Under the pieces are notes generated by a model, which was given only the letters and a program-made list of their open reading frames with translations, was not told the origin of the DNA and did no database searches. DNA of 60,026 nucleotides, taken from sequence record PV806339.1; one strand, 5' to 3'. The stretch comes from a phage. Below are positions 17,287-33,342 of this stretch, one piece after another. Position numbers and translations under genes: made by a program. The stretch's first letter is position 1; each line of letters begins with the position of its first letter.

Positions 17287-17291
17287 TAACA

Positions 17292-18980: not shown

Positions 18981-18989
18981 GAGGGCATT

Positions 18990-19808
18990 ATGTCTTACAA
19001 CATTATCGAGACGTCCAACGACAACGGCAGGCCCGTATTTATGTACGAGTTTCGCCTGCTGGATAAATACTGGCGTTATACCTCCGCAGACGCTAAAGTA
19101 AGTGCGCTGGGGAGCATTTGGGAACCGATGGGAGTGTCCGACGACGGGATTAAACAAACGGGCGAGGCTAAGACGGATGCGCTAAATCTGACGCTGCCAA
19201 ACTCGAATCCCGTCGTCGGCCTCTTCATCGGGACTCCCCCCGGCTCCCCCGTAACCCTGACTATCCGACGGATGCACCTTGACGATAACGACCCGGTGGT
19301 CTGTTATGTCGGCACCGTCGATAGCATCAATCAGGGCGAAAACCCTACCGTAGCAACTGTCACCTGTTCAACCCTGTCGGCCACGATGGACAGAAATGGT
19401 CTGCGCCTGTCGTGGAGCCGTGGTTGTCCGCACGCGCTGTATGACGGCCAATGCCGCGTTAACAAAGAAGCCTTCCGCGTGGATGCCACGATCCTTACCG
19501 TTGGCGCGGGTACCGTTACGGCTGCTGCATACGCCACACGGCCAGATGGGTATTTCGCAGGCGGCTTCATCGAGTGGATAGATCCGGTGTACGGCGTGGA
19601 ACGTCGCGGCATCGAAACCCATACCGGGAATACCATTACCATCTTTGGTACCGTAGACGGCTTGGCCGGGGGCTACATCCTCAAGACTTACCCGGGATGC
19701 CCGCGCACCAGTACGGCCTGTGATACCATCTTCAACAATCTGGCGAACTTCGGCGGTATCCCGTCGCTGCCAGACCGTTCCCCGTTCGACGGCAACCCAA
19801 TCTTTTAA
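18990..19808 (+). CDS. minor tail protein (272 aa), possibly DUF2163/BR0599-like
   Basis: Position; Cys-containing motif GCPHALYDGQC...GCPRTSTACD. Confidence 0.4.
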   Translation: MSYNIIETSNDNGRPVFMYEFRLLDKYWRYTSADAKVSALGSIWEPMGVSDDGIKQTGEAKTDALNLTLPNSNPVVGLFIGTPPGSPVTLTIRRMHLDDNDPVVCYVGTVDSINQGENPTVATVTCSTLSATMDRNGLRLSWSRGCPHALYDGQCRVNKEAFRVDATILTVGAGTVTAAAYATRPDGYFAGGFIEWIDPVYGVERRGIETHTGNTITIFGTVDGLAGGYILKTYPGCPRTSTACDTIFNNLANFGGIPSLPDRSPFDGNPIF

Positions 19809-19819
19809 GGAGAATCGCT

Positions 19820-20050
19820 ATGTGGTGGGCGTTAGCTATGCTGGTGGCCTCGGTGCTGATCAACGCGGCCCTCGCGCCGAAGCCTGCATCGGCAAAACCA
19901 GCAACAATTCAGGACTTCGACATCCCGCAGGTGAAGGAAGGCACGCCGCAGTCCGTGGTATTCGGCGAGGTGTGGACAGCCGACTGGCAGGTATTGGGCT
20001 TCGGCAACTTCCGAACCAAAGCAGTTAAAGCGAAACAGGCGAAAAAATAA
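19820..20050 (+). CDS. small hydrophobic protein (76 aa)
   Basis: N-terminal hydrophobic helix WWALAMLVASVLINAALAP; RBS AAGGAG. Confidence 0.4.
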   Translation: MWWALAMLVASVLINAALAPKPASAKPATIQDFDIPQVKEGTPQSVVFGEVWTADWQVLGFGNFRTKAVKAKQAKK

Positions 20051-20289
20051 TGAGCAGACACGACGAGCCGCAGGATCAGCCGCGCATCTTTATGCGCCAT
20101 GCCCGGAAACTCGGGTATTGCAAAAACGGGTCGGAGCGCTTGGCCGAGCGCTTCGGAATCACCTTCGAACAATTCCTACGGGAAGGCTACCCGGTAGCGG
20201 AAGCCATGAAGTCCGCAAACCCGCTGCTGCGTAAAGCCGCAGCCGTGGCCCAACAAGAATGGGACGAGGCGCACGCACATGGGAAGTAA
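20050..20289 (+). CDS. hypothetical protein (79 aa)
   Basis: ORF overlapping neighbours in tail module. Confidence 0.35.
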   Translation: MSRHDEPQDQPRIFMRHARKLGYCKNGSERLAERFGITFEQFLREGYPVAEAMKSANPLLRKAAAVAQQEWDEAHAHGK

Positions 20290-23200
20290 AGCCAAGAAGA
20301 TTACGGTTGGGTACAAATACTACATGGGCCTGTTTATGGGCCTTTTCCGTGGCCCGGTGAATGAGATTGTCGAGATCCGCGTGGGCGACCGTACCGCGTG
20401 GACAGGCTCAATCACTGGCAACACAACCATCCAGATTAACCGCGAAGACTTGTTCGGCGGCACGAAGGCGGAAGGCGGCATTGATGGCCCGCTAGAACTG
20501 TACATGGGCGCGCCGACGCAGACCGTCAGCCAGAAGTTAAAGAACATGCTCGGTGGCCGCCAGCCGGAATTCCGTGGTGTCGTTACCGCGTATTTCGACG
20601 GCCTGATCTGCGCCATGAACCCATACCCGAAGCAGTGGAAATTCAAGGCCCGCCGCTCTACGGCCGGGTGGACTGGCGGCGTCTGGTATCCGGAAAAATG
20701 TCTGGTCAAGATGCAGGGGTACGACGGTCAGGGCAATCAGCACGAAATCCATGCCATGAACCCTGCGCACATCCTGTATGAGTGCCAGTCGAACTTCGAA
20801 TGGGGCCGTGGCCTGTCACGCTCGCTTATCGACGATACGACGTTCCGCCTTGTGGCCGACACCCTGTTTAACGAGAACTTCGGCCTTTGCATCCGATGGA
20901 ACCGTCAGGACACGCTCGAATCGTTCATGCAGCTTATCCTCGACCACATTGGCGGTGCGATGTACGTCAGCAAAGTGACGGGCAAACTGTCCCTGCGGTT
21001 GATCCGGAAGGACTACGACTTCGACACGCTGCCGATCTTCGACACGGATTCCGGGCTGCTGTCCATTCAGGAAGCGACCAACGCGTCTCCGGCCAATCTG
21101 GTTAACGAAGTGGTCGTGACCTACCACAACCCGATCATGGACGAAGACCAGCAGGTGCGTAGCCACAACCTCGCGCAGATCCAGAATCAGGGCTGTCTGA
21201 ACAGCAACACGATTGAATACCTCGGCATCCCTACCGGGAAACTGGCGATGCAGGTGGCACAGCGTGACTTGCGCGCCGCGTCTACCAACGTCCGCCGTTT
21301 CACCGTGATCTGTGACCGCCGGGCATGGAACGTGCAGCCGGGCGACGTGCTGAAAGTGCGTGACCCGAAACAGCGCGGCCTGACCGAAGTTGTTATCCGC
21401 GTCGGTACCGTTGAAGATGGCACGCTGCCGGACGGCAAGATCAAGATTGTCGCGCTGCAAGACCAGTTCGCCTTCCAGTTAAACACGTTCAACCAAGTCG
21501 AGCCACCATCCGGATACGAGCCTGACCTGACTCCCGCGATTGCCCGCCGTATCGTGTACGAAATGCCGTACGTGGATCTGGTGCAGCAGCTACCGGACGG
21601 CGAACTGAACGCCGTTGGCCCGAACGATGCGTTCATCAACTCGCAGGCCGAGAAGCCGACTGACATGTCCGCCGCGTATGACATGGGTATCATGGCCGAA
21701 GGTGAATCGGGCTTCGACATCCGTGGCAACGGTGACTTCGGCGCGTTCGGATCACTGGCCGCCGACATCGACTACCTGTCAACGCAAATCGTTCTGTCCG
21801 AAATGACCGACATGTGGGACGACGTGCAGCCCGGATTTGTGGCGCGCATCGCCAAGCCTGTTCTTGACGGCCAACGCACGCAGATGGAAATCGCGGAAGA
21901 GTTTGTCCGCATCGACGCCATCAATGGCAACGTGATTACCGTGGCGCGCGGCGTACTTGACACCATCCCATTCCGCCACCAGAAAAGCGAAATGCTTTGG
22001 GTGACGACGTACGACGGCGGTACCGACTGGCAGAAATACGCGGGCAACGAGTCCATCGACATCAAGATTCTGCCGTGGACATTGGGCGGTGGCCGCTTCC
22101 CGATTGAAGATGCGCCGATTGATCATCTGGACATGGACTTCCGCCAGATCCGCCCATACCCGCCGGGCAACGTGCAGCACTATCTCGCTTCGACGTCAAC
22201 GCTGCAACGCTGGTATGTCCCGTCCGCGCTTACCTACACGGCCAACGCCGGGGAAACGCCTGACACGTACACCCTGACTTGGGCGCACCGCGACCGTATC
22301 CTGCAAGCGGATAAGCCTGTGCCGCACACCGACGGCGACATCGGGCCAGAACCGGGTACCACGTACACCATCCGCGTCTACAATCAGGAAGGCACGTTAG
22401 TTCGCACCGAATCCGGCATCAACGGCACGTCGTGGAATTGGCCGTACGCAACCGCAGCGGCTGACATGAATGTCGAAGCCAGTCTGTTCGACCCGGTGCT
22501 CGCGACGCTCCGCCTGACGTCTGTCCGCAGTGGCCGCGAAAGTTGGGAATACTACGAAATGAAGGTCAGCGTTTATAAAAAGCCGCCGCAGTTCGTGTAT
22601 GACGCCAGCCTGATGCAGTTCGCCGCGCAGCCGTACAACGCCGCCAGTGATCCTAACCCGCCAACGCCACCGATGGACGGCCCGTATGTTTCGTCCCTGA
22701 TGCAGTTCGCCGCGCAGCCGGATGGTAGCGGTGATTTCGGCGAAGCAGATAGCATGAGTGGCCCGAACGTGGCGCTGCTGCCGCACCAAGTTACGCAGAC
22801 GTCGTCCATCATTACGCCGCTCGATACGCTGCTGTACGAAACACCGTACATCCAGTTATCCCGCGACGGCCGTGACCTGAACACGTCGAAAGTCAGCGCG
22901 TACGTGGCGCGTTCGTCCGACCGTACCGTCGATTCGTATACCCTGTTCACCAAGCATGAAGCCGATGCGGATTACGCTTCCGCCGGGACTCAGCCGTGGA
23001 CACCGTGGGGCATGACAACCGTCGGCCTCGGCTTCTTCACGGACGAAGTGACGATTGACCCGACGTCGGATAAAGACGGCGTTCCTATCGCGGGCGCGCA
23101 GGTGGGCGATCTTCTGCTTATCGATCAGGAATTGATGTCCATCACCGCCATCAACGGCCGCACGTACAAGATTGGGCGTGGCGTGGCTGACACCATTCCG

Positions 23201-24169
23201 GCGCAGCACTACAGCCGCCGTCCGGTCTGGCTGATCTCCGTGGGCTTCGGCTACTCCGACATGGCATTCGGCGATAACGAAAAGGCGATGGTCATCGTCC
23301 GCCCGGATACCTACGGCACCGACATCCCGCTGAACAAGCTGTACCCGCTCCAGTTGCAGATGCAGTACCGCCCGAAACGTCCATACCCGCCGGGCCTGAT
23401 GATGATTGGCGGCCAACCGTTCTTCAACACCGCGAGCGGACTGGCAGACGATTTCAACCCGTACAACAACCTGAAAGCGAAAGACGTGGCCTGCACGTAC
23501 GCCCACCGCAACCGCGTAACTCAGGCAAACACGGCGCGCGACCATTTCGCCGTCGGTATCAACCCGGAACCGGGCGTGAAGTACCGCGTGCGTATCGGCT
23601 ATGCGTACTGGTCGCAGTCCGGCAGTGGATTCTCGCTGCTGTCTCAGTTCGACACGGAAGACGCGGGCTTCATCATGCGCGCGGCCGACCTTGAACGTTG
23701 GGGCCGTCAGGCGGGCTATGCGCAAGACGCTGGCGGATACTCCACGTTAAACGTGACCGTCAACGCGATTCGTGATGGAATGCTGAACTGGCAGGGATAC
23801 ACGATGACCGTGCGCGTGCCGTCCTTCCCGCTTCCTCCGGGTCAGAAACCGGGCGGTGGCGATGGGCCGTGGAACCCGCCGGGCGGAGGCAATACAGGCG
23901 GTACCACGCCACCTACGGAGCCGCCGGATCGTCCAGACCCGAGCGAGCCGGGTACAACCGACCCATCCGAGCCGACCAAGCCGGACGAACCGGAAGATCC
24001 GCAACCGCCTGTAGACCCGGAAGACCCGGATACTGATCCGCCGACTCCGCCAGACCCGCCGATCGACCCGACCAACGTGCCGGGCTGGTCATTGAGTTGG
24101 GATCACGGTTGGGCGATGACGCTGCCAGATTTCCGATACGTTCCACCAGCAGAAGAGGAACCTGAATAA
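20279..24169 (+). CDS. host specificity / central tail fibre protein (1296 aa)
   Basis: Largest tail-tip ORF; Pro/acidic low-complexity C-terminus; internal repeat SLMQFAAQP x2. Confidence 0.6.
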   Translation: MGSKAKKITVGYKYYMGLFMGLFRGPVNEIVEIRVGDRTAWTGSITGNTTIQINREDLFGGTKAEGGIDGPLELYMGAPTQTVSQKLKNMLGGRQPEFRGVVTAYFDGLICAMNPYPKQWKFKARRSTAGWTGGVWYPEKCLVKMQGYDGQGNQHEIHAMNPAHILYECQSNFEWGRGLSRSLIDDTTFRLVADTLFNENFGLCIRWNRQDTLESFMQLILDHIGGAMYVSKVTGKLSLRLIRKDYDFDTLPIFDTDSGLLSIQEATNASPANLVNEVVVTYHNPIMDEDQQVRSHNLAQIQNQGCLNSNTIEYLGIPTGKLAMQVAQRDLRAASTNVRRFTVICDRRAWNVQPGDVLKVRDPKQRGLTEVVIRVGTVEDGTLPDGKIKIVALQDQFAFQLNTFNQVEPPSGYEPDLTPAIARRIVYEMPYVDLVQQLPDGELNAVGPNDAFINSQAEKPTDMSAAYDMGIMAEGESGFDIRGNGDFGAFGSLAADIDYLSTQIVLSEMTDMWDDVQPGFVARIAKPVLDGQRTQMEIAEEFVRIDAINGNVITVARGVLDTIPFRHQKSEMLWVTTYDGGTDWQKYAGNESIDIKILPWTLGGGRFPIEDAPIDHLDMDFRQIRPYPPGNVQHYLASTSTLQRWYVPSALTYTANAGETPDTYTLTWAHRDRILQADKPVPHTDGDIGPEPGTTYTIRVYNQEGTLVRTESGINGTSWNWPYATAAADMNVEASLFDPVLATLRLTSVRSGRESWEYYEMKVSVYKKPPQFVYDASLMQFAAQPYNAASDPNPPTPPMDGPYVSSLMQFAAQPDGSGDFGEADSMSGPNVALLPHQVTQTSSIITPLDTLLYETPYIQLSRDGRDLNTSKVSAYVARSSDRTVDSYTLFTKHEADADYASAGTQPWTPWGMTTVGLGFFTDEVTIDPTSDKDGVPIAGAQVGDLLLIDQELMSITAINGRTYKIGRGVADTIPAQHYSRRPVWLISVGFGYSDMAFGDNEKAMVIVRPDTYGTDIPLNKLYPLQLQMQYRPKRPYPPGLMMIGGQPFFNTASGLADDFNPYNNLKAKDVACTYAHRNRVTQANTARDHFAVGINPEPGVKYRVRIGYAYWSQSGSGFSLLSQFDTEDAGFIMRAADLERWGRQAGYAQDAGGYSTLNVTVNAIRDGMLNWQGYTMTVRVPSFPLPPGQKPGGGDGPWNPPGGGNTGGTTPPTEPPDRPDPSEPGTTDPSEPTKPDEPEDPQPPVDPEDPDTDPPTPPDPPIDPTNVPGWSLSWDHGWAMTLPDFRYVPPAEEEPE

Positions 24170-24909
24170 TGCCGAAAAAGACAGCCCCGAATCAGGGGCT
24201 ACCCTACGGGTGGATTCGCGGGGAAGACTATTGGGGTGGCCCGATGTCCGACTCGCAAATCTTCCTCGACACCACGCTATTCCTGACACTGGAATCGCTG
24301 ACCTTCTCCGCTCCGCCGCCTAACGCGGTGGACGGGGCCACCTACGTCGTCGCGGCCAACCCGACGGGGGCGTGGGCCGGGCATGAAGGCGATGTGGCCG
24401 TGTACGTGGAAAAGGTCTGGACGTTTTACACGCCTCGCTACGGGTGGCGCGCTCGCGTTCGTTCGTACGAGAAGTTCTTGTGGTTCAATGGCACGACGTG
24501 GATTGACGAGGCGACCGGGGAAGACCCGGTCAACCCTGACCCTGACCCAAGCGTTAAGCCGAAATGGTACGACATCGGGGTGACGGTGTCGGACAGCATG
24601 TACGCGAATGAGCCTGTCGTGCATCTGCCGATCCTTGACCCGATGTACCTGCCCGCCAACATGGTAGGATCTCAGTTTGACATGGCCGACGGTGCAAGCC
24701 CGGCCTATTATCAATTCCGCGTGCAGCGCAACGGCCAGAACGTCGCAACGATGACCGTGGAAATCGGAAACTTCAACGCGTCGTTTACCACTACCGGGGG
24801 CAACCCGATTTCCTTCGCGGCCGGGGATCGCATGACGGTTCGCGCGCAGCAGGAAGCCGTCGCCGGGATGAAAAACTTTGGCTTCGTAATTCGCATGGGA
24901 CTGGTCTAA
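24169..24909 (+). CDS. hypothetical tail-associated protein (246 aa)
   Basis: ATGA overlap with host specificity gene. Confidence 0.4.
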   Translation: MPKKTAPNQGLPYGWIRGEDYWGGPMSDSQIFLDTTLFLTLESLTFSAPPPNAVDGATYVVAANPTGAWAGHEGDVAVYVEKVWTFYTPRYGWRARVRSYEKFLWFNGTTWIDEATGEDPVNPDPDPSVKPKWYDIGVTVSDSMYANEPVVHLPILDPMYLPANMVGSQFDMADGASPAYYQFRVQRNGQNVATMTVEIGNFNASFTTTGGNPISFAAGDRMTVRAQQEAVAGMKNFGFVIRMGLV

Positions 24910-24918
24910 GGGGATCAC

Positions 24919-25926
24919 ATGGCAAGTTATTTTGATGGATATGAGCAGTTCCGGTCTACGGACAAGTCTAACCCGGGAACCTTTATGCGGCTCGCCGGGT
25001 ACACGGTTCGCGGTGCAATCTCCGCAGGTCTTGGTCGCCTCCAGACGAGCATCGGCCTGTACACACTGAACAGCGCCTACGAGCGCGATTGGACGTGGGG
25101 CGGTGACACCCTTACCATCGGCTTCGCGTGCAAGCAGCAGGCGCGTGGCGCGCTATTTGGGCTAAAGGTCGGTGACGCCACTGGCCGCGATGTTCCGCAT
25201 GTCGTTGTCTACACTGACCCGGTGTCGGCGCTCGTCACCATCCAGACCGGGCCAGACCAGTCGGAAGTCGGGTATGTCACGCCGATCCCGACACGCTGGT
25301 ATTACTATGAAGTCGTGATGAACCGCGCCACGAAGGTTATCGAGGTGTTTGTCAACGGGAAATCGGACGTAGCCTATACACTGCCGGACGTCCTTGCGGC
25401 GTCGGCCGTCGTGCGCATGGTCTTCAACCCGTTCGACATGCTGCCATCGTTCCCGGCCGACGCGGAGTACACGGAAGACACGAAGGTATTCGACGACATG
25501 TACGCGCAGGACGGCGGCCGCTTAGGGGCCATCCAGATCAGCGGACGTCTGCCGGACGGCGACCGCGATACCGAATGGGGCGTGGCCGGGCCTAACCCAA
25601 CGGCCGCACATAACCAGATGGTCGGCCGACTGCCGCCAGACATGGCAAACAAGTACATCTACACTGGCACGAATGACCGTCACGACTCGTTTATCTCGAC
25701 GAACAAACTGCCGGATAACGGGGCCATTCTGGCGCAGGGTCTGATCGCCTTAGTCCGGAAGGCCACGGCCGACCCGGTGTCGATTATCGCGAACATTGAC
25801 AGCCACACTGTTACCCTGTCGAATATCGGCCGTAATTGGGAATATCGTTACGCGCAATTCACCACAAGCGGTTATGATCAGGCCGCCATTGAAGCCGCCG
25901 AATTCGGTGTGCGTTCAGTTCTATAA
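24919..25926 (+). CDS. fibre-like protein, paralog 1 (335 aa)
   Basis: Shares MxxFxDG[YF][DE] N-terminus, WYY[YF]E[VI], I.ISGRLP..D.D.EW and FG[VI] C-terminus with next two ORFs. Confidence 0.5.
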   Translation: MASYFDGYEQFRSTDKSNPGTFMRLAGYTVRGAISAGLGRLQTSIGLYTLNSAYERDWTWGGDTLTIGFACKQQARGALFGLKVGDATGRDVPHVVVYTDPVSALVTIQTGPDQSEVGYVTPIPTRWYYYEVVMNRATKVIEVFVNGKSDVAYTLPDVLAASAVVRMVFNPFDMLPSFPADAEYTEDTKVFDDMYAQDGGRLGAIQISGRLPDGDRDTEWGVAGPNPTAAHNQMVGRLPPDMANKYIYTGTNDRHDSFISTNKLPDNGAILAQGLIALVRKATADPVSIIANIDSHTVTLSNIGRNWEYRYAQFTTSGYDQAAIEAAEFGVRSVL

Positions 25927-25936
25927 AGGGGTTACT

Positions 25937-26899
25937 ATGCTGAAATTTATGGACGGTTTTGACCAGCTACGCGGCTGGTCTGACGTTACGGATGGGCTGA
26001 CCAAATGCGGGTACACCGTGTCTGGCACGCCCACGTTAGAAGAAGGACGCGTGGCTACGCAGATGGCGGTATCACTGCCGGACACGGCCAGCCTGAAACG
26101 CGTGTTCACCTCCGGGGCCACGAAAGTCGTGTTTGGCTTTGCCTTCCGGGCCATCGGTCTGCGCCACACCCTGATCACCATCAAAGATGTCGTGACGATT
26201 ACGTGGAGCGAGACGGACGGGAAGATCACGGCCGCTGGCGGTACCGGAACGGCGGTGCTGCTGCTGGACTTGTGGTACTACATCGAAGTGGTTCTGGACA
26301 AGACCACCAGCACGATCGAGGTGTACGTGAACAACGGGCTGGACATCACCGCGCCATCGCCGTCGAGCGCTAACCCGGTCACTAACTATGAAGTCACATG
26401 GGCGGGCGTTGCCACGGCGCAGTACCTTCTCGACGACCTCCAGTTCATCGACAATCAGCCGGGCAAGTATACCGGGCGCATCGGGCCTATCCAGATCACC
26501 AGTCGCTTGCCGATGGTGGACGTGGACAAAGAATGGTCGCCGTCATCCGGCAACGACCACTACCCGCTCGTCTACAATCAGCCGCCCGTCGAGGGGTCGT
26601 ACATCCAGTCGAACACGTCCGGCGCGACCGACACGTTTCTATCAAACACCGTCATCCCTGATACGCAAAACATTCTGGCCGTCGGCATGACCGTGCTGAA
26701 TAAAAAGTCAGACGTGGACAACCGTCAGTTAGGCATGGTCATCGGCCAAAAAGGCGACACGCAAAAAGAAGTTATCGACGCGGCGCTATCCACGACTGAA
26801 AAGTATAGTTATGCTGTGTTCGAGACGAACGCGGCCGGGCAAGACTGGAATGACGAACGACTCAGCGAAGCGCCGTTCGGCGTCATCGTAAGACCATAA
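25937..26899 (+). CDS. fibre-like protein, paralog 2 (320 aa; start refined from ORF 25796)
   Basis: ATG at 25937 with RBS AAAGGGG after previous stop; paralog of 24919 and 26913 ORFs. Confidence 0.5.
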   Translation: MLKFMDGFDQLRGWSDVTDGLTKCGYTVSGTPTLEEGRVATQMAVSLPDTASLKRVFTSGATKVVFGFAFRAIGLRHTLITIKDVVTITWSETDGKITAAGGTGTAVLLLDLWYYIEVVLDKTTSTIEVYVNNGLDITAPSPSSANPVTNYEVTWAGVATAQYLLDDLQFIDNQPGKYTGRIGPIQITSRLPMVDVDKEWSPSSGNDHYPLVYNQPPVEGSYIQSNTSGATDTFLSNTVIPDTQNILAVGMTVLNKKSDVDNRQLGMVIGQKGDTQKEVIDAALSTTEKYSYAVFETNAAGQDWNDERLSEAPFGVIVRP

Positions 26900-26912
26900 G
26901 GAGCATACCGAA

Positions 26913-27932
26913 ATGTTTAAATTCTGTGACGGGTACGACCACTATGCCGAAATCGGCGTGAAGGGTACGGCCCTACAAGGTTATCTGGAAGCCGCCGGGT
27001 ACGTGGTGCGTAATGCCAGCGATACGACGTTTTCCGTTGTCGAGGGCCGCCGGACAGGTGCGCGTGCGCTGAAATTCACCGTGGCCGCCAGTTCATCGGT
27101 CAACGCCTCGCTGTCATGGGGATTCACCACGACGGCCTCGTCAGTCGTCTTCGGATTTGCCATGAAAGCCGGGCTGTCCCGTATGCGTATCGCGCGTATC
27201 GAGAACATCGTGGATATCGAGTGGGACACCACGACCGGGAAAATCCGCGTAGGCGAGCAGTTAGGCGTCAACCCGCTGATCCTGAACGCATGGTACTACT
27301 TCGAAATCGAGATCGATAAGACGGCCAACACCGTCAAGGTCTACGCGAATAACGAATTGCAGTTAACCGTTACGCCATCGAGTGCGCCGACCACCACGTA
27401 CACAATCGTTTGGGGCCAGACGGGTACCGCACCTAATGCGGGCGAACAGACACTGGATGACTTCTACGTGATCGACGGTTCCGGTAGCCGCAACAACGCG
27501 CGCCTGACTCCGGTCGAAGTGACCAGCCGTATGCCGACGGCCGACGTTTCTACGCAGTGGGACGTTGTGAACGCCTCGTCCTCCACGCCGCACTATCAGA
27601 TCGTGTCACAGCTTTCCCCGGGCGGCGAGTCGAAGCCATACCTGCAATCGAACACCGCAGGGGCCACGGATATGTACCGTTCGAACGTGACGCTGCCGAA
27701 CAATAACCAGATCTTCGCCGTATCTGTTATCGCGTACGCCCGTAAAGGCGACCTTGATGATCGTAAACTCGGTCTGGTGGTCAACACGGAAGGCGGTACG
27801 CCGACTGAAATTCAGGTGCCGCTTACCGAGTCGTATAAGTATTATCAGGCATCGTTCGAGCAAGCGCCGGGCGGAAGTGACTGGAACCAGAACAACGTCG
27901 AATCTTTGCAATTCGGCATCATCACGCGATAA
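26913..27932 (+). CDS. fibre-like protein, paralog 3 (339 aa)
   Basis: Paralogous motifs MFKFCDGYDHY, WYYFEIEIDKT, VEVTSRMPTADVSTQW, FGIITR. Confidence 0.5.
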   Translation: MFKFCDGYDHYAEIGVKGTALQGYLEAAGYVVRNASDTTFSVVEGRRTGARALKFTVAASSSVNASLSWGFTTTASSVVFGFAMKAGLSRMRIARIENIVDIEWDTTTGKIRVGEQLGVNPLILNAWYYFEIEIDKTANTVKVYANNELQLTVTPSSAPTTTYTIVWGQTGTAPNAGEQTLDDFYVIDGSGSRNNARLTPVEVTSRMPTADVSTQWDVVNASSSTPHYQIVSQLSPGGESKPYLQSNTAGATDMYRSNVTLPNNNQIFAVSVIAYARKGDLDDRKLGLVVNTEGGTPTEIQVPLTESYKYYQASFEQAPGGSDWNQNNVESLQFGIITR

Positions 27933-27946
27933 GGGAGGGACACACT

Positions 27947-29176
27947 ATGCCTGTAGTATGGCACTGCGGTTTTAATGGTTTTATCAACAATACGTCGGGG
28001 CAGGGTCAGTCGAACCTGTTTATCAACACAAACGATACCGGGACGGTGAGCCATGCCCTCTCCGCCGACAATTTAATTAATAACGTTTTTGGTCGTGGCG
28101 GAAACGGCTACCAAAACGGCGGCTTTCTCCCTTTGATCACTTACTACGGACGTAAATGGTCGTCGTCCGGGTCGTACGGGTCGTCTTATGTTTTTGGTCG
28201 TGTTAAGCCGTCTTTCTTTGATAACTCCGTGCCATGTCTAAGCACCGAACAATACCAACCTGCTAACACTTCCGACTGGTGGGGAGGGTGGCAGTTCCGT
28301 ATCGATTTGTGCTGGCCCTCGGCGGAACGCCTGACGACGTCGTGGCGCATGGGCTTCCGTATTGGCCGCGCAACACACCCCACATACAATATTGGTTATC
28401 AAGTCTATATCTGCCCGGCGGGTATTAACGAAGCAAACGGCCAAGACTTGTATCGTATCTCGATCTCTGCGGGTCAGGACGAGAAGTATATGGAGGTGGA
28501 ATGGTTGGCGGACAGCAAGACCCTTAACATCTATCTGAACGACGAACTTGTCTCGACCCGCACCAACTATACTGCCAACGATATGTCGTACGGCCTTATT
28601 TTGATGTGCGAACATTTCGTTGGCACTAACACTAGCTCCACACCGTTCTTCGGTTTTGAACTGCGGGACATGTATGTCCAGAAAATCGTTTCAGATGCAG
28701 ATCAACGCCTCGGGTCTTCGACGAAAGTATATGCGTTCAATCCCGTTAATGACGATGTTGTACAGTTCTCTCGGCCAGACGCATATTCGTCAAACGCCGC
28801 CGTCGCGGTAACGCCGATCGCTCCCGGGGGTATCACCCCGACGCCGTCGCAATCTCCCGCAATTCTCGGGGCGGACGTGGTCGGACAGCAAGACCTGTAT
28901 AACATTGACATTTCCAAAGTCAGCACACGTCTGGCGTCGATTGAAGCGGTCAACGTCCGGACGATGGCCCGAAATCCGTTGCTTGGAAATAGACAATCTG
29001 CCGCGATCGCTAAATCCGGGGCGACCCAAACCCAAAGCGAGAACACATCGACGCTCGAACAAGGCGGCCTGTGGCGTTTCAACACGTTGCAGATGGTGTC
29101 TGACCCGGCGGACGGCGCACGTTGGAACCTTACAAAACTGGCCGGGCTTAAAGTCGGTACCAAATTCGTCGCGTAA
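27947..29176 (+). CDS. fibre-like protein, divergent paralog 4 (409 aa)
   Basis: Gly/Asn-rich N-terminus; weaker shared motifs; position in the tandem array. Confidence 0.4.
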   Translation: MPVVWHCGFNGFINNTSGQGQSNLFINTNDTGTVSHALSADNLINNVFGRGGNGYQNGGFLPLITYYGRKWSSSGSYGSSYVFGRVKPSFFDNSVPCLSTEQYQPANTSDWWGGWQFRIDLCWPSAERLTTSWRMGFRIGRATHPTYNIGYQVYICPAGINEANGQDLYRISISAGQDEKYMEVEWLADSKTLNIYLNDELVSTRTNYTANDMSYGLILMCEHFVGTNTSSTPFFGFELRDMYVQKIVSDADQRLGSSTKVYAFNPVNDDVVQFSRPDAYSSNAAVAVTPIAPGGITPTPSQSPAILGADVVGQQDLYNIDISKVSTRLASIEAVNVRTMARNPLLGNRQSAAIAKSGATQTQSENTSTLEQGGLWRFNTLQMVSDPADGARWNLTKLAGLKVGTKFVA

Positions 29177-29185
29177 GGGGGCCAT

Positions 29186-31381
29186 GTGGCTGATGAAGAC
29201 GTAGGTATCAGCGCGGCCAAGTTGGTCGGCGAAGCCTTGCAGTGGAATGGCGAGAAGCCCAAACTCACATACCTGTCCCGGTGTGTAGGGGAAGCGTTAG
29301 CCATTTCCGCATTGAACATGGACGCGGCGAAAAACTTCGGGGAGGTTTTGCAGTGGGACGGTAAATTGCCGTCCATCTTCCGCGCCTCCAGACTGGTCGG
29401 CGAAGTGCTGGCGATTCAAAAGATGGAGATCCGCGCATCGTCAATGATTTGCGAAGCGCTGGTCAAAGAGCCGCAATTTATGGCGGCCGAAATGATCTGC
29501 GAGGCTATCGGTCAGGCGGCCACGGAACGGCCACCGCTTTACGCAGATGCGGTGTATGAGTATGTCACGCAGCACGACGTCGTACCGCCTTTGTCGGAAG
29601 TCATTTCTCCGGAAAGTCTGTACACGTTGTGGAATTACGCCATTGTCCAGCGGCCGATCGATGACCCGATTTCCTACAACATCGTGAAGCAGGCGGTGAC
29701 GCTGTCCGTTCTGGCGTCGCCTATCGTGACCATTTCGTACGACAAGGTGAAGACCGCGTGGTCGTATGCTGTGGTGTCCGCGACGCTCGGTGACTTCCCG
29801 CTGCCGGATGAAATGTGGTCGAAGATCAGCACGAAGCAGGTCTGGAATCTGGTATTGCAGTCGATCGACATCCCGTACGTCCCGACGTCTGGTGTGTTCG
29901 TTCGTCATGAATCGACGCTGGTGGTTCAGGCCCATCCGCTGCCGATGTACACGACGCCTGCGTCCGTGAAGTCGAACGCGGTTCTGGCCGCGCAGAAGCG
30001 CCCGGTTGAACGACTCCCGCGCTCAATGACTCGCGTGGCGCAGGGATTATCGCAGGCCGTTACCGCGCTGCCGATCCCGATGCCACGGTCTGACGTGTTC
30101 GCCGCGCAGATGCTGTCACAGGCTGTAATCCCGGCCGACTTCGTTGACCCGACTGTCGGCGTCGAGCACGCGGCCGCAGTGACGTCGTACGCCGTTTGCG
30201 AGTATCAGGTGTCGCTTCCTATCAGTTACACGCGCGCGAAGTCCCTGACGCCGCTGGTGCTGCAATTTAGCGATAACCAACGAGTCATTCCGCTGTCCAC
30301 GATGCGCACCAAACATGTTTCGTCTCAGTTCTTGGTCAAGTCTGACTTGCTCCCGGTGCTGTCCACGATGCGCACCGAACATGTTTCGTCTCAGTTCTTG
30401 GTCAAGTCTGACTTGCTCCCGGTGCTGTCTCGGACGCGCGTTAAACAGGTACGCGGCTATGCAGTGCGGGCGGAAGAGTACACGCCTCCGATTAACCTGC
30501 TGGTGTGGTCGCGCGCTGACGCTGTTCGCATGTCGGTGGTGCAGCAGGCAACGGACTACCCTGACCCGGGAATCCCTACAACGTCGGCCATCGTCAGCGC
30601 GGCCACGGCGTACCACGTCATGAAAGCGCTGGACTACGAAGATCCGAACGACATGTGGGAGGCGAGCAAGGTTCAGATCGTGCCGCAGTTCTTAGAGAAG
30701 GTGGTGAAAGCCCAACCGCTGCGGCTCCCGATCTCGTACGCTCCGCTGGCGCAATTTGTTGAACTGGTGACGCGGTACCAGTACATGCCGCCTCCGGGCG
30801 AAGTCGCCGAGTCCGGTATCCATGTTCGTCAGGTGATGCAGCCAGTGGCGTTCCGCGCGACGTACCCTGACCCGACTGTCCCGGTATCCCACCTGACGGT
30901 CAATCAGGTGCTGGAGCACATCGCGATCCCGGCCGACTATCCGGACGTCCACCTGCCGACGTCGGACGCGATTGTAAATCAGGTATTGGAACACGTTGCG
31001 CAGATTGACGATTTCCCTGATCCCGGTACCATGTTCCGGCCGCTTATTGTCAGCCAGATCATTCAGCAGGCGGCACAGGATGCGTCTTACCCGGATTGGA
31101 GCACACTGCATAAACCGCTTGCGGTTCAGCAGGTAATTCAGCATGTATCAATGACGGCGGAATACCCTGACAAGGACGTCCCGCAATCATTTGCAAAAGT
31201 GTCTCAAGTTTTGCAGCACTATGCCGATAAAGCTAATTACCCAGACAAAGATGCTCCCCAATCCACGCTACGAGTCCGTCAGGTACTTGAGCAGGTAATG
31301 ATGCGCGACAAGTCGATGTACGAAATGCCGCAGCCACCACGGAAACATCGGGTGCAAATCACTTGCCGCTTTGTGTACTGA
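29186..31381 (+). CDS. repeat-rich fibre-like protein (731 aa; GTG start)
   Basis: RBS AAGGGGG; periodic ~24-aa repeats (YPDxxxPxSxxxVxQVLxHV...) and a 22-aa exact tandem duplication. Confidence 0.55.
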   Translation: MADEDVGISAAKLVGEALQWNGEKPKLTYLSRCVGEALAISALNMDAAKNFGEVLQWDGKLPSIFRASRLVGEVLAIQKMEIRASSMICEALVKEPQFMAAEMICEAIGQAATERPPLYADAVYEYVTQHDVVPPLSEVISPESLYTLWNYAIVQRPIDDPISYNIVKQAVTLSVLASPIVTISYDKVKTAWSYAVVSATLGDFPLPDEMWSKISTKQVWNLVLQSIDIPYVPTSGVFVRHESTLVVQAHPLPMYTTPASVKSNAVLAAQKRPVERLPRSMTRVAQGLSQAVTALPIPMPRSDVFAAQMLSQAVIPADFVDPTVGVEHAAAVTSYAVCEYQVSLPISYTRAKSLTPLVLQFSDNQRVIPLSTMRTKHVSSQFLVKSDLLPVLSTMRTEHVSSQFLVKSDLLPVLSRTRVKQVRGYAVRAEEYTPPINLLVWSRADAVRMSVVQQATDYPDPGIPTTSAIVSAATAYHVMKALDYEDPNDMWEASKVQIVPQFLEKVVKAQPLRLPISYAPLAQFVELVTRYQYMPPPGEVAESGIHVRQVMQPVAFRATYPDPTVPVSHLTVNQVLEHIAIPADYPDVHLPTSDAIVNQVLEHVAQIDDFPDPGTMFRPLIVSQIIQQAAQDASYPDWSTLHKPLAVQQVIQHVSMTAEYPDKDVPQSFAKVSQVLQHYADKANYPDKDAPQSTLRVRQVLEQVMMRDKSMYEMPQPPRKHRVQITCRFVY
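30293..30424 (+). repeat. 66-bp tandem direct repeat, 2 copies, 65/66 identical, inside fibre-like CDS
   Basis: Copy 1 30293-30358, copy 2 30359-30424; single a/g difference at 30311 vs 30377. Confidence 0.9.
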
Positions 31382-31402
31382 CAATTGACGGGTTAATATT
31401 CT

Positions 31403-31428
31403 TAGCGGGCTTGTCCCGCTAATTTTTT
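31403..31428 (+). terminator. Rho-independent terminator after fibre genes
   Basis: Stem TAGCGGG / CCCGCTA followed by ATTTTTT. Confidence 0.6.
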
Positions 31429-31443
31429 GTGAGGAAGCACCCA

Positions 31444-31782
31444 ATGAGCGAAATGGAACGGGAACGGCCGGGGGATAACTCCGGCGGCATCAAGTTAGAC
31501 TTGTCTGTCAATCTCCCCACGATTCTGACGATGGCTTCGATGCTGGTGGCGGCGGTACTGTACGTCAACAACCGCTTCGCCGACCTATCAAACCAGAACA
31601 CGCAGACGGACACCCGGCTTACCAACGTCGAGAAACGTCAGGACTCCACTGACGCGGCGTTCACGGTTCTCCGGGCCGAAACCGTCTCGCAAAACTCCGC
31701 CCTTCGTTCAGACCTTCGCGCCGACATGCGCGACCTGAAACAAAGCGTGGATACCCTATCTTCCCAAATGATGAGGAAATAA
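31444..31782 (+). CDS. putative holin (single TM, about 112 aa)
   Basis: RBS GAGGAAG; one TM LPTILTMASMLVAAVLYV; first gene of lysis cassette. Confidence 0.4.
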   Translation: MSEMERERPGDNSGGIKLDLSVNLPTILTMASMLVAAVLYVNNRFADLSNQNTQTDTRLTNVEKRQDSTDAAFTVLRAETVSQNSALRSDLRADMRDLKQSVDTLSSQMMRK

Positions 31783-31785
31783 CCG

Positions 31786-32499
31786 ATGGCTAAACAGAAG
31801 CCGCGCGGGATTCGCAATAACAACCCGGGCAACATCGAGTGGGGGTCGCCGTGGCAAGGGCTGATCCCGCGCAGTGAAGCGACGGACAGCCGCTTCGCAC
31901 AGTTCAAAGACCCGGCATCCGGCATCCGCGCCATTGCCGTCACTCTGACCACCTACTACGACAAGCGCAAAGCGAATGACGGTAGCAAAATCGACTCGGT
32001 GCGAGAAGTTATCGAGCGGTGGGCACCCGCCGTTGAGAACAACGTATCGGCCTACGCTAAACAGGTTGCCGCCGTTCTGGCCGTTGACCCGAATAGCGAA
32101 ACGCTGAACCTCCACGACTACGACACCATGCGCGGTCTGGTGGAAGGCATCATCCGCCACGAAAACGGGAACCCGGAAGCGTTCGGCCTGACGTCGTACA
32201 GCAACGCGAATACGTGGTACTCGGACGAAGTGATCGAGGAAGGTCTGCGCCGGGCGGGCATCGTTAAGGCGGCCAAGCCTGTTAACCGTACCACCGTGGC
32301 CGCGACAAGCGTGGCAGGACTCGGCGCGGCGCAACTGGTTGACATGGTACAGCCCGTCAAGGCTGCGATGGACAGCGCCCACGGTGATATTTCTTCCGGT
32401 GATTGGGTACGCATCGCATTCGGCGCGGCCACAATCGCGATTGGCCTGTACATGGGATGGGTCGCGTACCGGAAGCATCGGGCCGGGGCCGCTGCATGA
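31786..32499 (+). CDS. putative endolysin with C-terminal transmembrane helix (237 aa)
   Basis: Position between holin-like and spanin genes; N-terminal RGIRNNNPGNIEWG motif; C-terminal TM WVRIAFGAATIAIGLYMGWVAY; enzyme family not verified. Confidence 0.4.
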   Translation: MAKQKPRGIRNNNPGNIEWGSPWQGLIPRSEATDSRFAQFKDPASGIRAIAVTLTTYYDKRKANDGSKIDSVREVIERWAPAVENNVSAYAKQVAAVLAVDPNSETLNLHDYDTMRGLVEGIIRHENGNPEAFGLTSYSNANTWYSDEVIEEGLRRAGIVKAAKPVNRTTVAATSVAGLGAAQLVDMVQPVKAAMDSAHGDISSGDWVRIAFGAATIAIGLYMGWVAYRKHRAGAAA

Positions 32500-32750
32500 C
32501 GGGGCTACTCGCCCGGATTAAGACGGGCGTCCTTGCGGCGCTCGTTTTCGTTGTGGCCCTCTTCGGCGTCTGGCGGGCAGGACGCACGAAGGGCAAACAG
32601 GATCAGATTAATAACCAGAACAATGACACGTTGCGGGAACAGGCAAACGCGGATAAAAATGTGGCCGAGGTGCATAATGAAATCAATAAACTCCCTGATG
32701 GTGGCGCTAACGATCTGCTTCGCCGTAAGTGGATGCGTCGAAAGGATTAA
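32496..32750 (+). CDS. i-spanin (Rz-like), N-terminal TM (84 aa)
   Basis: ATGA overlap with previous gene; TM GVLAALVFVVALFGVW followed by charged/coiled region. Confidence 0.5.
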   Translation: MTGLLARIKTGVLAALVFVVALFGVWRAGRTKGKQDQINNQNNDTLREQANADKNVAEVHNEINKLPDGGANDLLRRKWMRRKD

Positions 32751-32880
32751 CCCTGCGCCGTCTTTCTGTTCTGTCGCGCGCGCCATCTACATCGGTGAGG
32801 AAGACGTGCTGACAGATGAAACCGCACGGCAGATCGCCACCCACGATGAAATCGGCGAACGGCTATGCGGCTGGAAATAG
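32677..32880 (+). CDS. o-spanin (Rz1-like) outer-membrane lipoprotein, overlapping i-spanin in +1 frame
   Basis: Signal peptide with lipobox MKSINSLMVALTICFAVSG-C; starts inside i-spanin gene and extends beyond it. Confidence 0.55.
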   Translation: MKSINSLMVALTICFAVSGCVERINPAPSFCSVARAIYIGEEDVLTDETARQIATHDEIGERLCGWK

Positions 32881-33342
32881 TTAAATGGTCGGGTGGGTGA
32901 TAACCACCGTACGTTCACCCTCGATTGTCTGGTGGTACCGCAGTGAGGACACCAGATGATCGAGGTTATTGAAGACCGGGATATTCAGCCGCTTCGCCTC
33001 TTCCACCTCCGCGCGGGTACCTGAACTGCGCATCGCGTCTTCACCAATCAGCAGAACCGCGTCACAGCGGCGCATCAATTCCATCGTGCATTCCAGCCAA
33101 TATTCATCCGGTATCTCGCCCTCGGTCTTGTACTCGAAGTTGGCCGTGTTCAGGTGCGGCGTGACCGGGAACATCTTGTGGACGTAGAGTTGATCGACAA
33201 CCGACACGGCCGTCTCTTCGGCTTTCAGGATGTTGACCTTCGTCGGAACGGTGCAGCCAGAACCGATGATGTACGGGCGGTACGGCCCGGCCAGATAGAT
33301 CATGACGGGCTTGGCCGCCGGGTTACACATATTCACGTTCAT
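32881..33342 (-). CDS. nucleoside 2-deoxyribosyltransferase-like protein (153 aa)
   Basis: IYLAGPY N-terminal motif and CDAVLLIGEDAMRSSGTRAEVEEAKRLNIPVF C-terminal region typical of NDT/DUF4406-like fold. Confidence 0.45.
   Translation of the reverse strand: MNVNMCNPAAKPVMIYLAGPYRPYIIGSGCTVPTKVNILKAEETAVSVVDQLYVHKMFPVTPHLNTANFEYKTEGEIPDEYWLECTMELMRRCDAVLLIGEDAMRSSGTRAEVEEAKRLNIPVFNNLDHLVSSLRYHQTIEGERTVVITHPTI

What the first reader, a model, noticed from the sequence alone, without database searches (positions are those of the whole stretch)
24919..29176. Tandem array of four paralogous fibre-like proteins downstream of the host-specificity protein
Three consecutive ORFs (24919, 25937, 26913) share clear paralogous motifs (N-terminal MxxFxDGYD, WYYxE[VI], I.I/VTSRLP..D.D.EW, C-terminal FG[VI]); a fourth (27947) is more divergent. 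The shared motifs suggest a jelly-roll/lectin-like fold. Gene duplication and divergence at the tail tip suggests multiple receptor-binding or glycan-binding modules, potentially broadening or switching host range.
Basis: partly seen in the sequence, partly recalled or inferred. Interest (0 to 1): 0.55.

Follow-up and report, generated by a model that had tools for sequence, protein, structure and literature searches.

The report
Four lectin-fold tail paralogs of Chi phage
Four neighbouring genes of a Salmonella Chi-like phage are ancient copies of one uncharacterised, lectin-shaped virion protein; relatives of these proteins are each needed for infection, so they look like fixed parts of the tail's attachment machinery rather than spare host-range modules.

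Summary
The window is a Chi-like Salmonella siphophage (Chivirus). The four ORFs are Chi gp32-35 (YSD1_31-34), all annotated as hypothetical.

**Observation: confirmed.**
- A (24919), B (25937) and C (26913) are clear paralogs (BLASTP E 1e-20 to 5e-66), all in PHROG 2448.
- D (27947) is a remote member, linked by BLAST, profile matches, intermediate sequences and the predicted folds of D-position proteins in other phages.

**What they are.**
- The triplication is old: A, B and C have one-to-one orthologs in fixed order across about 50 Casjensviridae loci.
- They are under strong purifying selection.
- Only D is hypervariable and mosaic.

**Evidence from relatives.**
- Homologs are in purified virions of phage AchV4.
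- In the flagellotropic phage JS26 the A, B, C and D-position orthologs are virion proteins and each is Tn-seq essential.
- Non-flagellotropic Yonseivirus lacks the whole module.

**Reading.** These are non-redundant structural subunits of the distal tail adsorption apparatus, with D the likely specificity subunit. Host-range broadening through A-C is not supported. The family is large (more than 7,000 clusters), with no Pfam model, no solved structure and no known position on the virion.

The parts
24919..25926 (+). Paralog A (335 aa; Chi gp32 / YSD1_31): the least conserved of the three clear members. Predicted LamG-like N-domain plus beta-sandwich C-domain by homology to C.
   Evidence: ORF. 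Shine-Dalgarno sequence and ATG start. PHROG 2448 at E 9e-123. BLASTP to B E 1e-27 and to C E 8e-21. 1:1 orthologs in Redjac, Saba, SNUABM08 and JS26 at 62/34/33/35% identity.
25937..26899 (+). Paralog B (320 aa; Chi gp33 / YSD1_32). In one metagenomic clade the B-position protein carries a BNR-type beta-propeller inserted in the N-domain.
   Evidence: ORF with ATG at 25937. PHROG 2448 at E 2e-135. Weak Laminin_G_3 match, E 0.05, below threshold. Orthologs at 77/44/40/46% identity. Propeller-insertion variants P0182, P0185 and P0195.
26913..27932 (+). Paralog C (339 aa; Chi gp34 / YSD1_33): the most conserved member and the one modelled. Residues 1-~190 form a ConA-like/LamG jelly roll; residues ~205-339 form a second beta-sandwich.
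27947..29176 (+). Divergent paralog D (409 aa; Chi gp35 / YSD1_34): hypervariable and mosaic, and a candidate specificity subunit. Homology to the family covers about residues 180-400.
   Evidence: BLASTP to C E 2e-5. PHROG 10924, plus PHROG 2448 at 8.6e-7. hhalign E 2.6e-4. Only 78.5% identical to Chi, 36% to Redjac and no match to Saba. Nucleotide identity to Chi drops to 60-83% exactly over 27919-29115. dS 1.7 against 0.2-0.4 in the neighbouring genes. Its own AF2 model is poor, pLDDT 54.6.
20279..24169 (+). Context: J-like tail-tip protein (1296 aa; Chi gp30 / YSD1_29, 'BH2P') with a Pro-rich C-terminal extension.
   Evidence: Pfam Phage-tail_3. Full-length match to PDB 8vjh_A (1-1296 of 1296, 2967 bits). 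Reported as the tail fibre protein by immunogold labelling in YSD1 (PMC12264135).
24169..24909 (+). Context: DUF2793 protein (246 aa; Chi gp31), annotated 'tail fiber protein', lying between J and the array.
   Evidence: Pfam DUF2793 E 2e-22. PHROG 7049. Weak match to the 9-copy chain 8gtc_S.
29186..31381 (+). Context: gp36-like protein (731 aa) with a 25-residue periodicity. It always follows the array and is the last gene of the tail operon.
   Evidence: ORF. PHROG 7226. Periodicity and [YF]PD motif spacing. E-like proteins follow the array in Redjac, Saba, SNUABM08, AchV4 and JS26.
31402..31422 (+). Intrinsic-terminator-like hairpin (8-bp stem plus T-run) 21 nt after the gp36-like stop. It marks the end of the tail/adsorption operon.
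   Evidence: Consensus scan only; across the 17000-33000 scan the total counts of promoter- and terminator-like sites are not above the shuffle expectation.

Best explanation
A, B, C and D are virion-borne, non-redundant structural subunits of the distal tail adsorption apparatus of Chi-like phages. That apparatus is the module encoded after the tail-tip hub: J-like gp30, DUF2793 gp31, gp32-35 and the repeat protein gp36.

Each subunit is a compact two-domain beta protein: a LamG/ConA-like jelly roll followed by a second beta-sandwich.

**Shown**
- Paralogy of the four genes.
- The predicted fold.
- Ancient one-to-one orthology in fixed gene order.
- Strong purifying selection on A-C.
- Hypervariability and mosaicism of D.
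- Co-transcription context with the tail-tip genes.

**Shown for homologs only**
- Presence in virions (AchV4, JS26).
- Individual essentiality (JS26).

**Inferred**
- The three conserved paralogs occupy distinct, fixed positions in one hetero-oligomeric assembly that attaches to the conserved tail tip.
- D, and the following gp36, provide strain-specific contacts.
- The LamG domains act as binding modules for glycan or protein rather than as enzymes.

Their position on the particle (tip periphery or the single long fibre) and their ligand are unknown.
For: - **Paralogy.** BLASTP E 1e-20 to 5e-66, and all three in one PHROG.
- **Ancient, ordered array.** A, B and C each have their own ortholog in Redjac, Saba, SNUABM08 and JS26. 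Across about 50 loci there are three clear members followed by a D-type gene.
- **Constraint.** dN/dS is 0.02-0.12. C (85/61/52% identity) is more conserved than the hub (78/53%) or J (68/41/40%).
- **Virion presence of homologs.** AchV4 gp25 gave 22 peptides at 75% coverage and gp26 gave 14 peptides (PMC7996906; homology shown).
- **JS26.** All 28 genes of the structural operon are Tn-seq essential. Only gp46, 48, 57, 58, 62, 63 and 68 were not detected in virions (preprint 10.64898/2025.12.19.695335). gp54/53/52 are the A/B/C orthologs and gp51 is D-like.
- **Module behaves as an adsorption cassette.** It is absent, together with the long J extension and the gp36-like gene, from Yonseivirus KPN N98, which carries an 869-aa ORF of unknown type in that position. 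PMC12264135 calls the corresponding protein of the related Yonseivirus phages PIN1/PIN2 a tail-spike or tail-fibre protein.
- **D as the variable subunit.** It is 78.5% identical to Chi while flanking genes are 94-99%. The nucleotide-identity trough falls exactly on D.
- **Surface exposure.** A BNR propeller is inserted into the N-domain of B-position proteins in one clade.
- **Operon structure.** Gaps between genes are 9-14 nt, each with a Shine-Dalgarno sequence, and a terminator follows gp36.
Against: - No direct data exist for this phage or for Chi. None of gp31-36 has a match among solved structures. The Chi tail-tip protein found here is gp30 (8vjh).
- YSD1 immunogold labelling attributes the fibre to YSD1_29. 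That leaves the place of five further essential virion proteins unexplained.
- My mapping of JS26 gp numbers follows GenBank feature order, because the preprint's table is not held. It was cross-checked in three ways only: gp46 is a small spanin-like gene at the operon end, gp57/58 are the two small ORFs, and there are 28 genes.
- Tn-seq essentiality inside a long operon can include polar effects, although the authors argue for read-through.
- AchV4 gp27, the D-position protein, was not detected by mass spectrometry.
- The ConA-like fold is shared by lectins and by glycanases or lyases, so a binding role is inferred, not shown.
- The hetero-oligomer idea is untested.
Confidence: 0.6

Rival explanations
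1. One reading: the four paralogs are alternative or additive receptor-binding or glycan-binding modules, and their duplication and divergence broaden or switch host range.
For: - Lectin-like fold.
- Virion association of homologs.
- Position in the adsorption cassette.
- D is hypervariable and mosaic, as expected of a receptor-binding protein.
- Propeller insertions occur in some B-position proteins.
Against: - A-C are old, 1:1 orthologous and in fixed order across genera.
- They are under strong purifying selection.
- C is among the most conserved tail proteins.
- A, B and C are identical in Chi and YSD1, although their host ranges are reported to differ (PMC10399903).
- Each ortholog is individually essential in JS26, so they are not redundant alternatives.
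Confidence: 0.15
2. They are virion-associated polysaccharide-degrading enzymes (GH16-, PL7- or PL14-like ConA-fold glycanases or lyases) that clear LPS or capsule at the cell surface.
For: - One remote homolog carries a precomputed Pfam PF14099 hit, which I recall as a polysaccharide-lyase family.
- E131 is invariant on the central strand.
Against: - The strand motif is EIEID in C but EVVMN in A and EVVLD in B. No GH16-type ExDx(x)E triad is conserved.
- The sequence signature is that of LamG.
- No Pfam enzyme family is matched.
Confidence: 0.08
3. A, B, C and D are the building blocks of the long single tail fibre itself: a heteromeric chain or filament of globular LamG-fold subunits, with gp36, that wraps the flagellum.
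For: - Five essential virion proteins (JS26 gp49-54) have no assigned place.
- None of gp31-36 has a match among solved structures, and the distal part of the Chi tail is described as too flexible to analyse (PMC12264135).
- The module co-occurs with flagellotropic genera and is missing in Yonseivirus.
- Fixed gene order and 1:1 orthology fit ordered serial assembly.
Against: - YSD1 immunogold labelling assigns the fibre to YSD1_29.
- The proteins are globular, which seems hard to reconcile with the long curly fibre of about 220 nm (PMC4342425) unless many copies polymerise.
- No oligomer prediction could be run.
Confidence: 0.15
4. They are assembly factors or chaperones for the tail tip or fibre and are not part of the finished particle.
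For: - RefSeq annotates neighbouring small genes as tail assembly chaperones.
- They are essential and lie in the tail operon.
- AchV4 gp27 was not detected.
Against: - AchV4 gp25 and gp26 have high peptide coverage in purified virions.
- JS26 orthologs were detected in virions.
- Four proteins of 320-409 aa is atypical for chaperones.
Confidence: 0.03

Closest known systems
PHROG 2448 / Chi gp32-34, YSD1_31-33, JS26 gp52-54, AchV4 gp25-26 (uncharacterised Casjensviridae virion proteins)
   Same: Direct orthologs or family members with the same length, same gene order and same predicted two-domain fold, with BFVD TMq 0.8-0.86. The AchV4 and JS26 members are experimentally virion-associated, and the JS26 members are essential.
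   Different: Nothing is known about their function, position or ligand. In the papers I could search, no paralogy, fold or array conservation had been described.
LamG / ConA-like lectin and CBM domains (sialidase lectin domains, legume lectins, ERGIC-53, BoNT/NTNHA HCN; Pfam Laminin_G_3)
   Different: Sequence identity is only 8-17% in the fold-search alignments. The Pfam gathering score is not reached. No ligand-binding residues could be assigned. There is an extra C-terminal beta-sandwich whose fold was not matched.
Accessory carbohydrate-binding modules on siphophage tail tips (own knowledge: 'evolved' Dit galectin insertions, BppA of lactococcal phages, LamG-rich tail fibre proteins)
   Same: These are lectin-fold modules carried at the distal tail in addition to the main tip protein. 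They are encoded just after the Dit/hub/J genes. LamG-rich large proteins also neighbour a remote family member.
   Different: Here the modules are free-standing proteins in a conserved array of three to five paralogs that are individually essential. They are not domains inserted into Dit, Tal or fibres. No solved phage structure contains a homolog.
RcGTA / phiJL001-type tail tip (DUF2460 Dit, BR0599 hub, Phage-tail_3 'megatron', DUF2793 fibre)
   Same: The upstream genes of the window are of this type, and the hub is shared with 691 phage records.
   Different: The LamG paralog family is found in only 182 records and is not coextensive with that tip type. It is an add-on module.

Membership tests
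PHROG 2448 (uncharacterised phage protein family) | Full-length match to the family profile | tested here: met
   A, B and C match positions 1-334 of 335 at E 9e-123, 2e-135 and 2e-137. D matches only positions 120-332 at E 8.6e-7; its best family is PHROG 10924.
ConA-like lectin/glucanase superfamily (LamG-like jelly roll) | Two-sheet antiparallel beta jelly-roll fold | tested here: met
Pfam Laminin_G_3 (PF13385) | Score above the Pfam gathering threshold | tested here: not met
   Only B matches, at 14.2 bits against a cut-off of 27.6 (E 0.05). A, C and D give no hit.
ConA-like lectins / CBMs | Carbohydrate (and often Ca2+) binding | not testable with these tools
   Invariant acidic and amide residues exist (D6, E131, N146, D183, D188).
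GH16-type glycoside hydrolases (ConA fold enzymes) | Catalytic E-x-D-x(x)-E motif on one strand (own knowledge of the family) | tested here: not met
   The motif is EIEID in C, EVVLD in B and EVVMN in A. Only the first Glu is invariant.
Phage tail fibre / receptor-binding proteins | Component of the virion tail | tested here: inconclusive
   Homologs AchV4 gp25/26 and JS26 gp50-54 are virion proteins. There are no data for this phage or for Chi, and the tail location is inferred from gene context only.
Phage tail fibre / receptor-binding proteins | Elongated fibrous (usually trimeric) shaft | tested here: not met
   The AF2 model of C is two compact beta domains with no coiled coil or beta-helix. 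Oligomeric state could not be predicted.
Phage tail fibre / receptor-binding proteins | Rapidly diverging, horizontally exchanged receptor-binding part | tested here: not met
   Not met for A-C: dN/dS is 0.02-0.12, and they are identical in Chi and YSD1. Met for D: 78.5% identity to Chi, a mosaic trough at 27919-29115, and dS 1.7.
Phage tail fibre / receptor-binding proteins | Binding to a host receptor | not testable with these tools
   Requires adsorption or binding assays.

The most novel reading that the evidence does not exclude
The three conserved paralogs, with D and gp36, assemble in fixed order into a hetero-oligomeric, asymmetric structure built from globular LamG-fold subunits. This structure would be, or would carry, the single flagellum-wrapping fibre of Chi-like phages. 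That would be a tail-fibre architecture unlike the homotrimeric fibrous proteins of model phages. It would also explain why five further essential virion proteins have no place in current Chi/YSD1 structures.
Probability: 0.15. Interest if true: 0.75.

Novelty: new member of a known kind. Interest (0 to 1): 0.42.

Why it matters
Chi is the classic flagellum-dependent phage. Which proteins form its fibre, bind the flagellin and determine host range is still unsettled (PMC10399903; PMC12264135).

- **Candidate parts.** gp32-35 belong to one large, unnamed family (more than 7,000 clusters at 50% identity) with a lectin-type fold. Their relatives are essential virion proteins. This gives a concrete list of parts for the unresolved distal tail.
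- **Conserved versus variable.** A, B and C form the conserved core, while D (and, in passing, gp36) is variable. That tells experimenters which genes to swap for host-range engineering and which to label for localisation.
- **Annotation.** The work supports a family-level name ('LamG-like virion protein') in place of 'hypothetical protein' and of spurious names such as 'histone-lysine N-methyltransferase'.

Tried and rejected
- **Sequence searches against solved structures.** A, B, D, gp36 and the A/B/C profile found no homolog. The only matches were a marginal one to the NTNHA LamG domain and gp30 = 8vjh.
- **Family libraries.** Pfam and NCBIfam gave no family.
- **Fold of the C-terminal domain.** It could not be assigned.
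- **Literature.** Searches for BH2P and CHI_32-36 returned nothing relevant. The key papers (Dunstan 2019, Sonani 2024, Choi 2013) are not held. The JS26 supplementary table is not held.
- **Distant genomic contexts.** Remote family members lie in dark metagenomic phage contigs that gave little information. One neighbourhood is rich in Laminin_G_3/DUF2341 proteins.
- **Two-copy fusions rejected.** The ~625-aa family members looked like fusions of two copies. They are single copies with a propeller insertion.
- **GH16-like enzyme rejected.** The catalytic motif is not conserved.
- **Internal regulation rejected.** Promoter- and terminator-like sites across the 17000-33000 scan are at the chance level.

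Full report
**Identity of the window.** The 12 kb around the finding is 96-98% identical to Salmonella phages ST-118, ST-101, iEPS5 and other members of Chivirus, family Casjensviridae. The four ORFs correspond to Chi gp32-35 and YSD1_31-34. They are 'hypothetical protein' in every curated record. Phage 35 gives them obviously spurious names.

The upstream genes are:
- a DUF2460-like distal tail protein;
- a BR0599 hub;
- two small ORFs;
- a 1296-aa Phage-tail_3 / J-like protein, which matches PDB chain 8vjh_A over its full length (1-1296 of 1296, 2967 bits);
- a 246-aa DUF2793 protein.

Downstream lies a 731-aa repeat protein, then a terminator-like hairpin at 31402-31422, then the lysis genes.

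**The observation.**
- *Coordinates.* They are correct. B starts at the ATG at 25937, not at the longer TTG ORF listed mechanically.
- *A, B and C.* They are unambiguous paralogs. BLASTP gives A-B 28% (E 1e-27), A-C 25% (E 8e-21) and B-C 37% (E 5e-66). All three match PHROG 2448 end to end.
- *D, direct evidence.* D is a remote member. It matches C at 23% over 227 aa (E 2e-5) and PHROG 2448 at 8.6e-7. The profile-profile E-value is 2.6e-4, at only 42% probability.
- *D, bridging evidence.* D-position proteins of other Casjensviridae hit both the D profile and the A/B/C profile. Remote family members hit both C and D by BLASTP. D-position proteins of JS26, Stilesk, Saba and Enc34 match the predicted C structure.

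**Structure.**
- *Model of C.* With a 53-sequence alignment, AlphaFold2 gives C a confident model (pLDDT 94.8, pTM 0.92). It has two all-beta domains, residues 1-~190 and ~205-339.
- *N-domain.* It is a ConA-like/LamG jelly roll.
  - Foldseek against PDB matches the BT_1020 sialidase entry, BoNT/NTNH HCN domains, legume lectins and ERGIC-53, with E about 1e-6 and probability 1.0.
- *Sequence level.* The only link to solved structures is the LamG strand signature shared with NTNHA (E 0.0076). Pfam Laminin_G_3 is below threshold.
- *No enzyme motif.* A GH16-type catalytic motif is not conserved among the paralogs.
- *Shape and limits.* The protein is globular, so 'fibre-like' is not apt. The C-terminal domain's fold was not assigned. 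D's own model is poor.

**Evolution.**
- *Orthology.* Each of A, B and C has its own positional ortholog in Redjacvirus, Cenphatecvirus, Gwanakrovirus and Dunedinvirus. Each is closer to that ortholog than to the other paralogs in its own genome.
- *Array census.* In about 50 isolate and IMG/VR loci the order is always A-B-C, followed by one or two D-type genes and a gp36-like gene.
- *Conservation.* Identity of the window to Chi/Redjac/Saba is as follows.

  | Protein | Chi | Redjac | Saba |
  |---|---|---|---|
  | A | 96% | 62% | 34% |
  | B | 94% | 77% | 44% |
  | C | 99% | 85% | 61% |
  | D | 78.5% | 36% | none |
  | J | 96% | 68% | 41% |
  | Hub | 99.6% | 78% | 53% |

- *Selection.* dN/dS against Chi is 0.06, 0.12 and 0.02 for A, B and C.
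- *D is mosaic.* D has dS 1.7 against 0.2-0.4 in its neighbours. Nucleotide identity to Chi falls to 60-83% exactly over 27919-29115, the signature of allele exchange.
- *Chi versus YSD1.* A, B, C and gp31 are identical between the two. D differs at 3 residues, J at 6 and gp36 at 27.
- *Family size.* A profile search finds 7,293 cluster representatives at E <= 1e-3. Most are stand-alone proteins of 310-360 aa. They occur in Casjensviridae, jumbo phages (Lu11, phiRSL1 C-terminus, Brevundimonas, RsoM2USA), VpV262 and a Roseovarius phage.
- *Propeller insertion.* In one clade a BNR/YCF48-like beta-propeller is inserted into an N-domain loop of the B-position protein.

**Experimental evidence from relatives.**
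- *AchV4 (Casjensviridae).* gp25 is 38% identical to B and gp26 is 29% identical to C. Both were found by LC-MS/MS in CsCl-purified virions, with 22 peptides at 75% coverage and 14 peptides at 35.5% coverage (PMC7996906).
- *JS26 (Casjensviridae).* PMC12264135 lists JS26 as flagellotropic. A Tn-seq preprint reports that all 28 genes of the structural operon gp73-gp46 are essential. It also reports that only gp46, 48, 57, 58, 62, 63 and 68 were not detected in virions (10.64898/2025.12.19.695335).
- *Gene mapping in JS26.* Mapping the GenBank record makes gp54, gp53 and gp52 the A, B and C orthologs. gp51 is D-like, gp50 shares the fold, and gp49 is gp36-like. On that mapping they are virion proteins and individually essential. 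The mapping is mine and was cross-checked three ways, because the preprint's table is not held.
- *Yonseivirus KPN N98 (Casjensviridae, Klebsiella pneumoniae host).* It has a short J, a DUF2793 gene and an 869-aa ORF of unknown type in the cassette position. It has no family member and no gp36-like gene. PMC12264135 describes K. pneumoniae as immotile and calls the corresponding protein of the related phages PIN1/PIN2 a tail-spike or tail-fibre protein. The module therefore behaves as an exchangeable adsorption cassette that goes with the long-J genera, which include the known flagellotropic phages.

**Interpretation.**
- *Best reading.* gp32-35 are non-redundant structural subunits of the distal tail adsorption apparatus. 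A, B and C form a conserved core, each in its own position. D is the variable, exchangeable subunit. The LamG domains act as binding modules.
'Fibre-like' and 'host-range broadening by duplication' are not, at least for A-C.
- *Unknowns.* Where the proteins sit is unknown. None of gp31-36 has a match among solved structures. YSD1 immunogold labelling assigns the fibre to YSD1_29. The Chi literature states that the fibre's composition is not experimentally established (PMC10399903).
- *Most novel reading still open.* These globular paralogs, with gp36, may build or carry the single long fibre.

**Novelty and score.**
- The genes are already in databases as hypotheticals.
- The fold class and the general role (lectin-fold accessory proteins at a siphophage tail tip) are familiar.
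- New here are the recognition of the paralog family and its size, the ancient fixed array, the contrast between conserved A-C and mosaic D, and the link to virion and essentiality data in relatives.
- I rate it a new member of a known kind, of moderate interest (0.42).

Noticed in passing
window 29186-31381 (+): The gp36-like protein (731 aa) has a 25-residue periodicity, with repeated '...V.QV[LI].H.A....[YF]PD...P' units that are clearest in residues 430-731. It always follows the paralog array. It is the most divergent tail protein between Chi and YSD1 (27 differences, against 0 in A-C), which makes it a candidate for the fibre or for flagellin specificity.
   Followed up: partly
window 30292-30429: There is a 66-bp tandem duplication (2.1 copies, 98% match) inside the gp36-like gene. 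It adds 22 aa (731 aa here, 709 aa in Chi). The same gene is annotated as two ORFs in ST-101, and phages 35 and 37 are reported to carry truncating deletions in the tail region (PMC12264135).
   Followed up: partly
window 27919-29115: A sharp mosaic patch coincides with gene D. Nucleotide identity to Chi is 60-83% here and 89-97% on both sides, and dS is 1.7. This indicates allele exchange of this one gene among Chi-like phages.
   Followed up: yes
window 31402-31422 (+): A strong intrinsic-terminator-like hairpin (8-bp stem with 5 GC pairs, then TTTTTT) lies 21 nt after the gp36-like stop codon. It separates the tail operon from the lysis genes.
   Followed up: no
window 20279-24169 (+), C-terminal ~120 residues: The J-like protein ends in a long Pro/Asp/Glu/Thr-rich low-complexity stretch (PPGGGNTGGTTPPTEPPDRPDPSEP...). 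The Yonseivirus J (761 aa) lacks the whole C-terminal half.
   Followed up: partly
GenBank records hit (e.g. GU169904.1 Staphylococcus phage SA1; OR844949 Enterococcus phage Efm 3-10; OR849445 Listeria phage LM 4-14-1; PV593182 Staphylococcus phage SVV09-A): Records named for Gram-positive hosts carry Chi-like or Proteus-phage-like sequences at 86-100% identity. These are probably contaminating or mis-assigned contigs.
   Followed up: no
L011 / NC_048632.1 (Salmonella phage 35), genes homologous to window 24919-29176: The paralogs are annotated there with spurious eukaryotic names ('histone-lysine N-methyltransferase', 'short transient receptor potential channel 6', 'VEGF receptor 1'). Some of these names have spread to Proteus phage records.
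   Followed up: no
L031, L034, L036-L040, L042, L043, L045, L046, L052 (IMG/VR contigs of 61-68 kb); proteins P0182, P0185, P0195: In one uncultured Casjensviridae-like clade the B-position paralog is 620-680 aa because a BNR/YCF48-like beta-propeller is inserted after about residue 60 of the LamG domain. Its D-position protein is about 710-740 aa.
   Followed up: partly
L059 (Klebsiella phage KPN N98, Yonseivirus) 15288-22113: This Casjensviridae genus, whose host K. pneumoniae is described as immotile (PMC12264135), lacks the paralog array and the gp36-like gene. It carries an 869-aa ORF (possibly the tail-spike that PMC12264135 describes for the related PIN phages) plus a 364-aa ORF in their place.
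   Followed up: yes
L008 (Achromobacter phage AchV4) 641-2563: AchV4 has two further ~320-aa 'virion structural proteins' (gp16, gp17) between the tape measure and Dit genes. They show no BLASTP similarity to the family, and their nature is unknown.
   Followed up: partly
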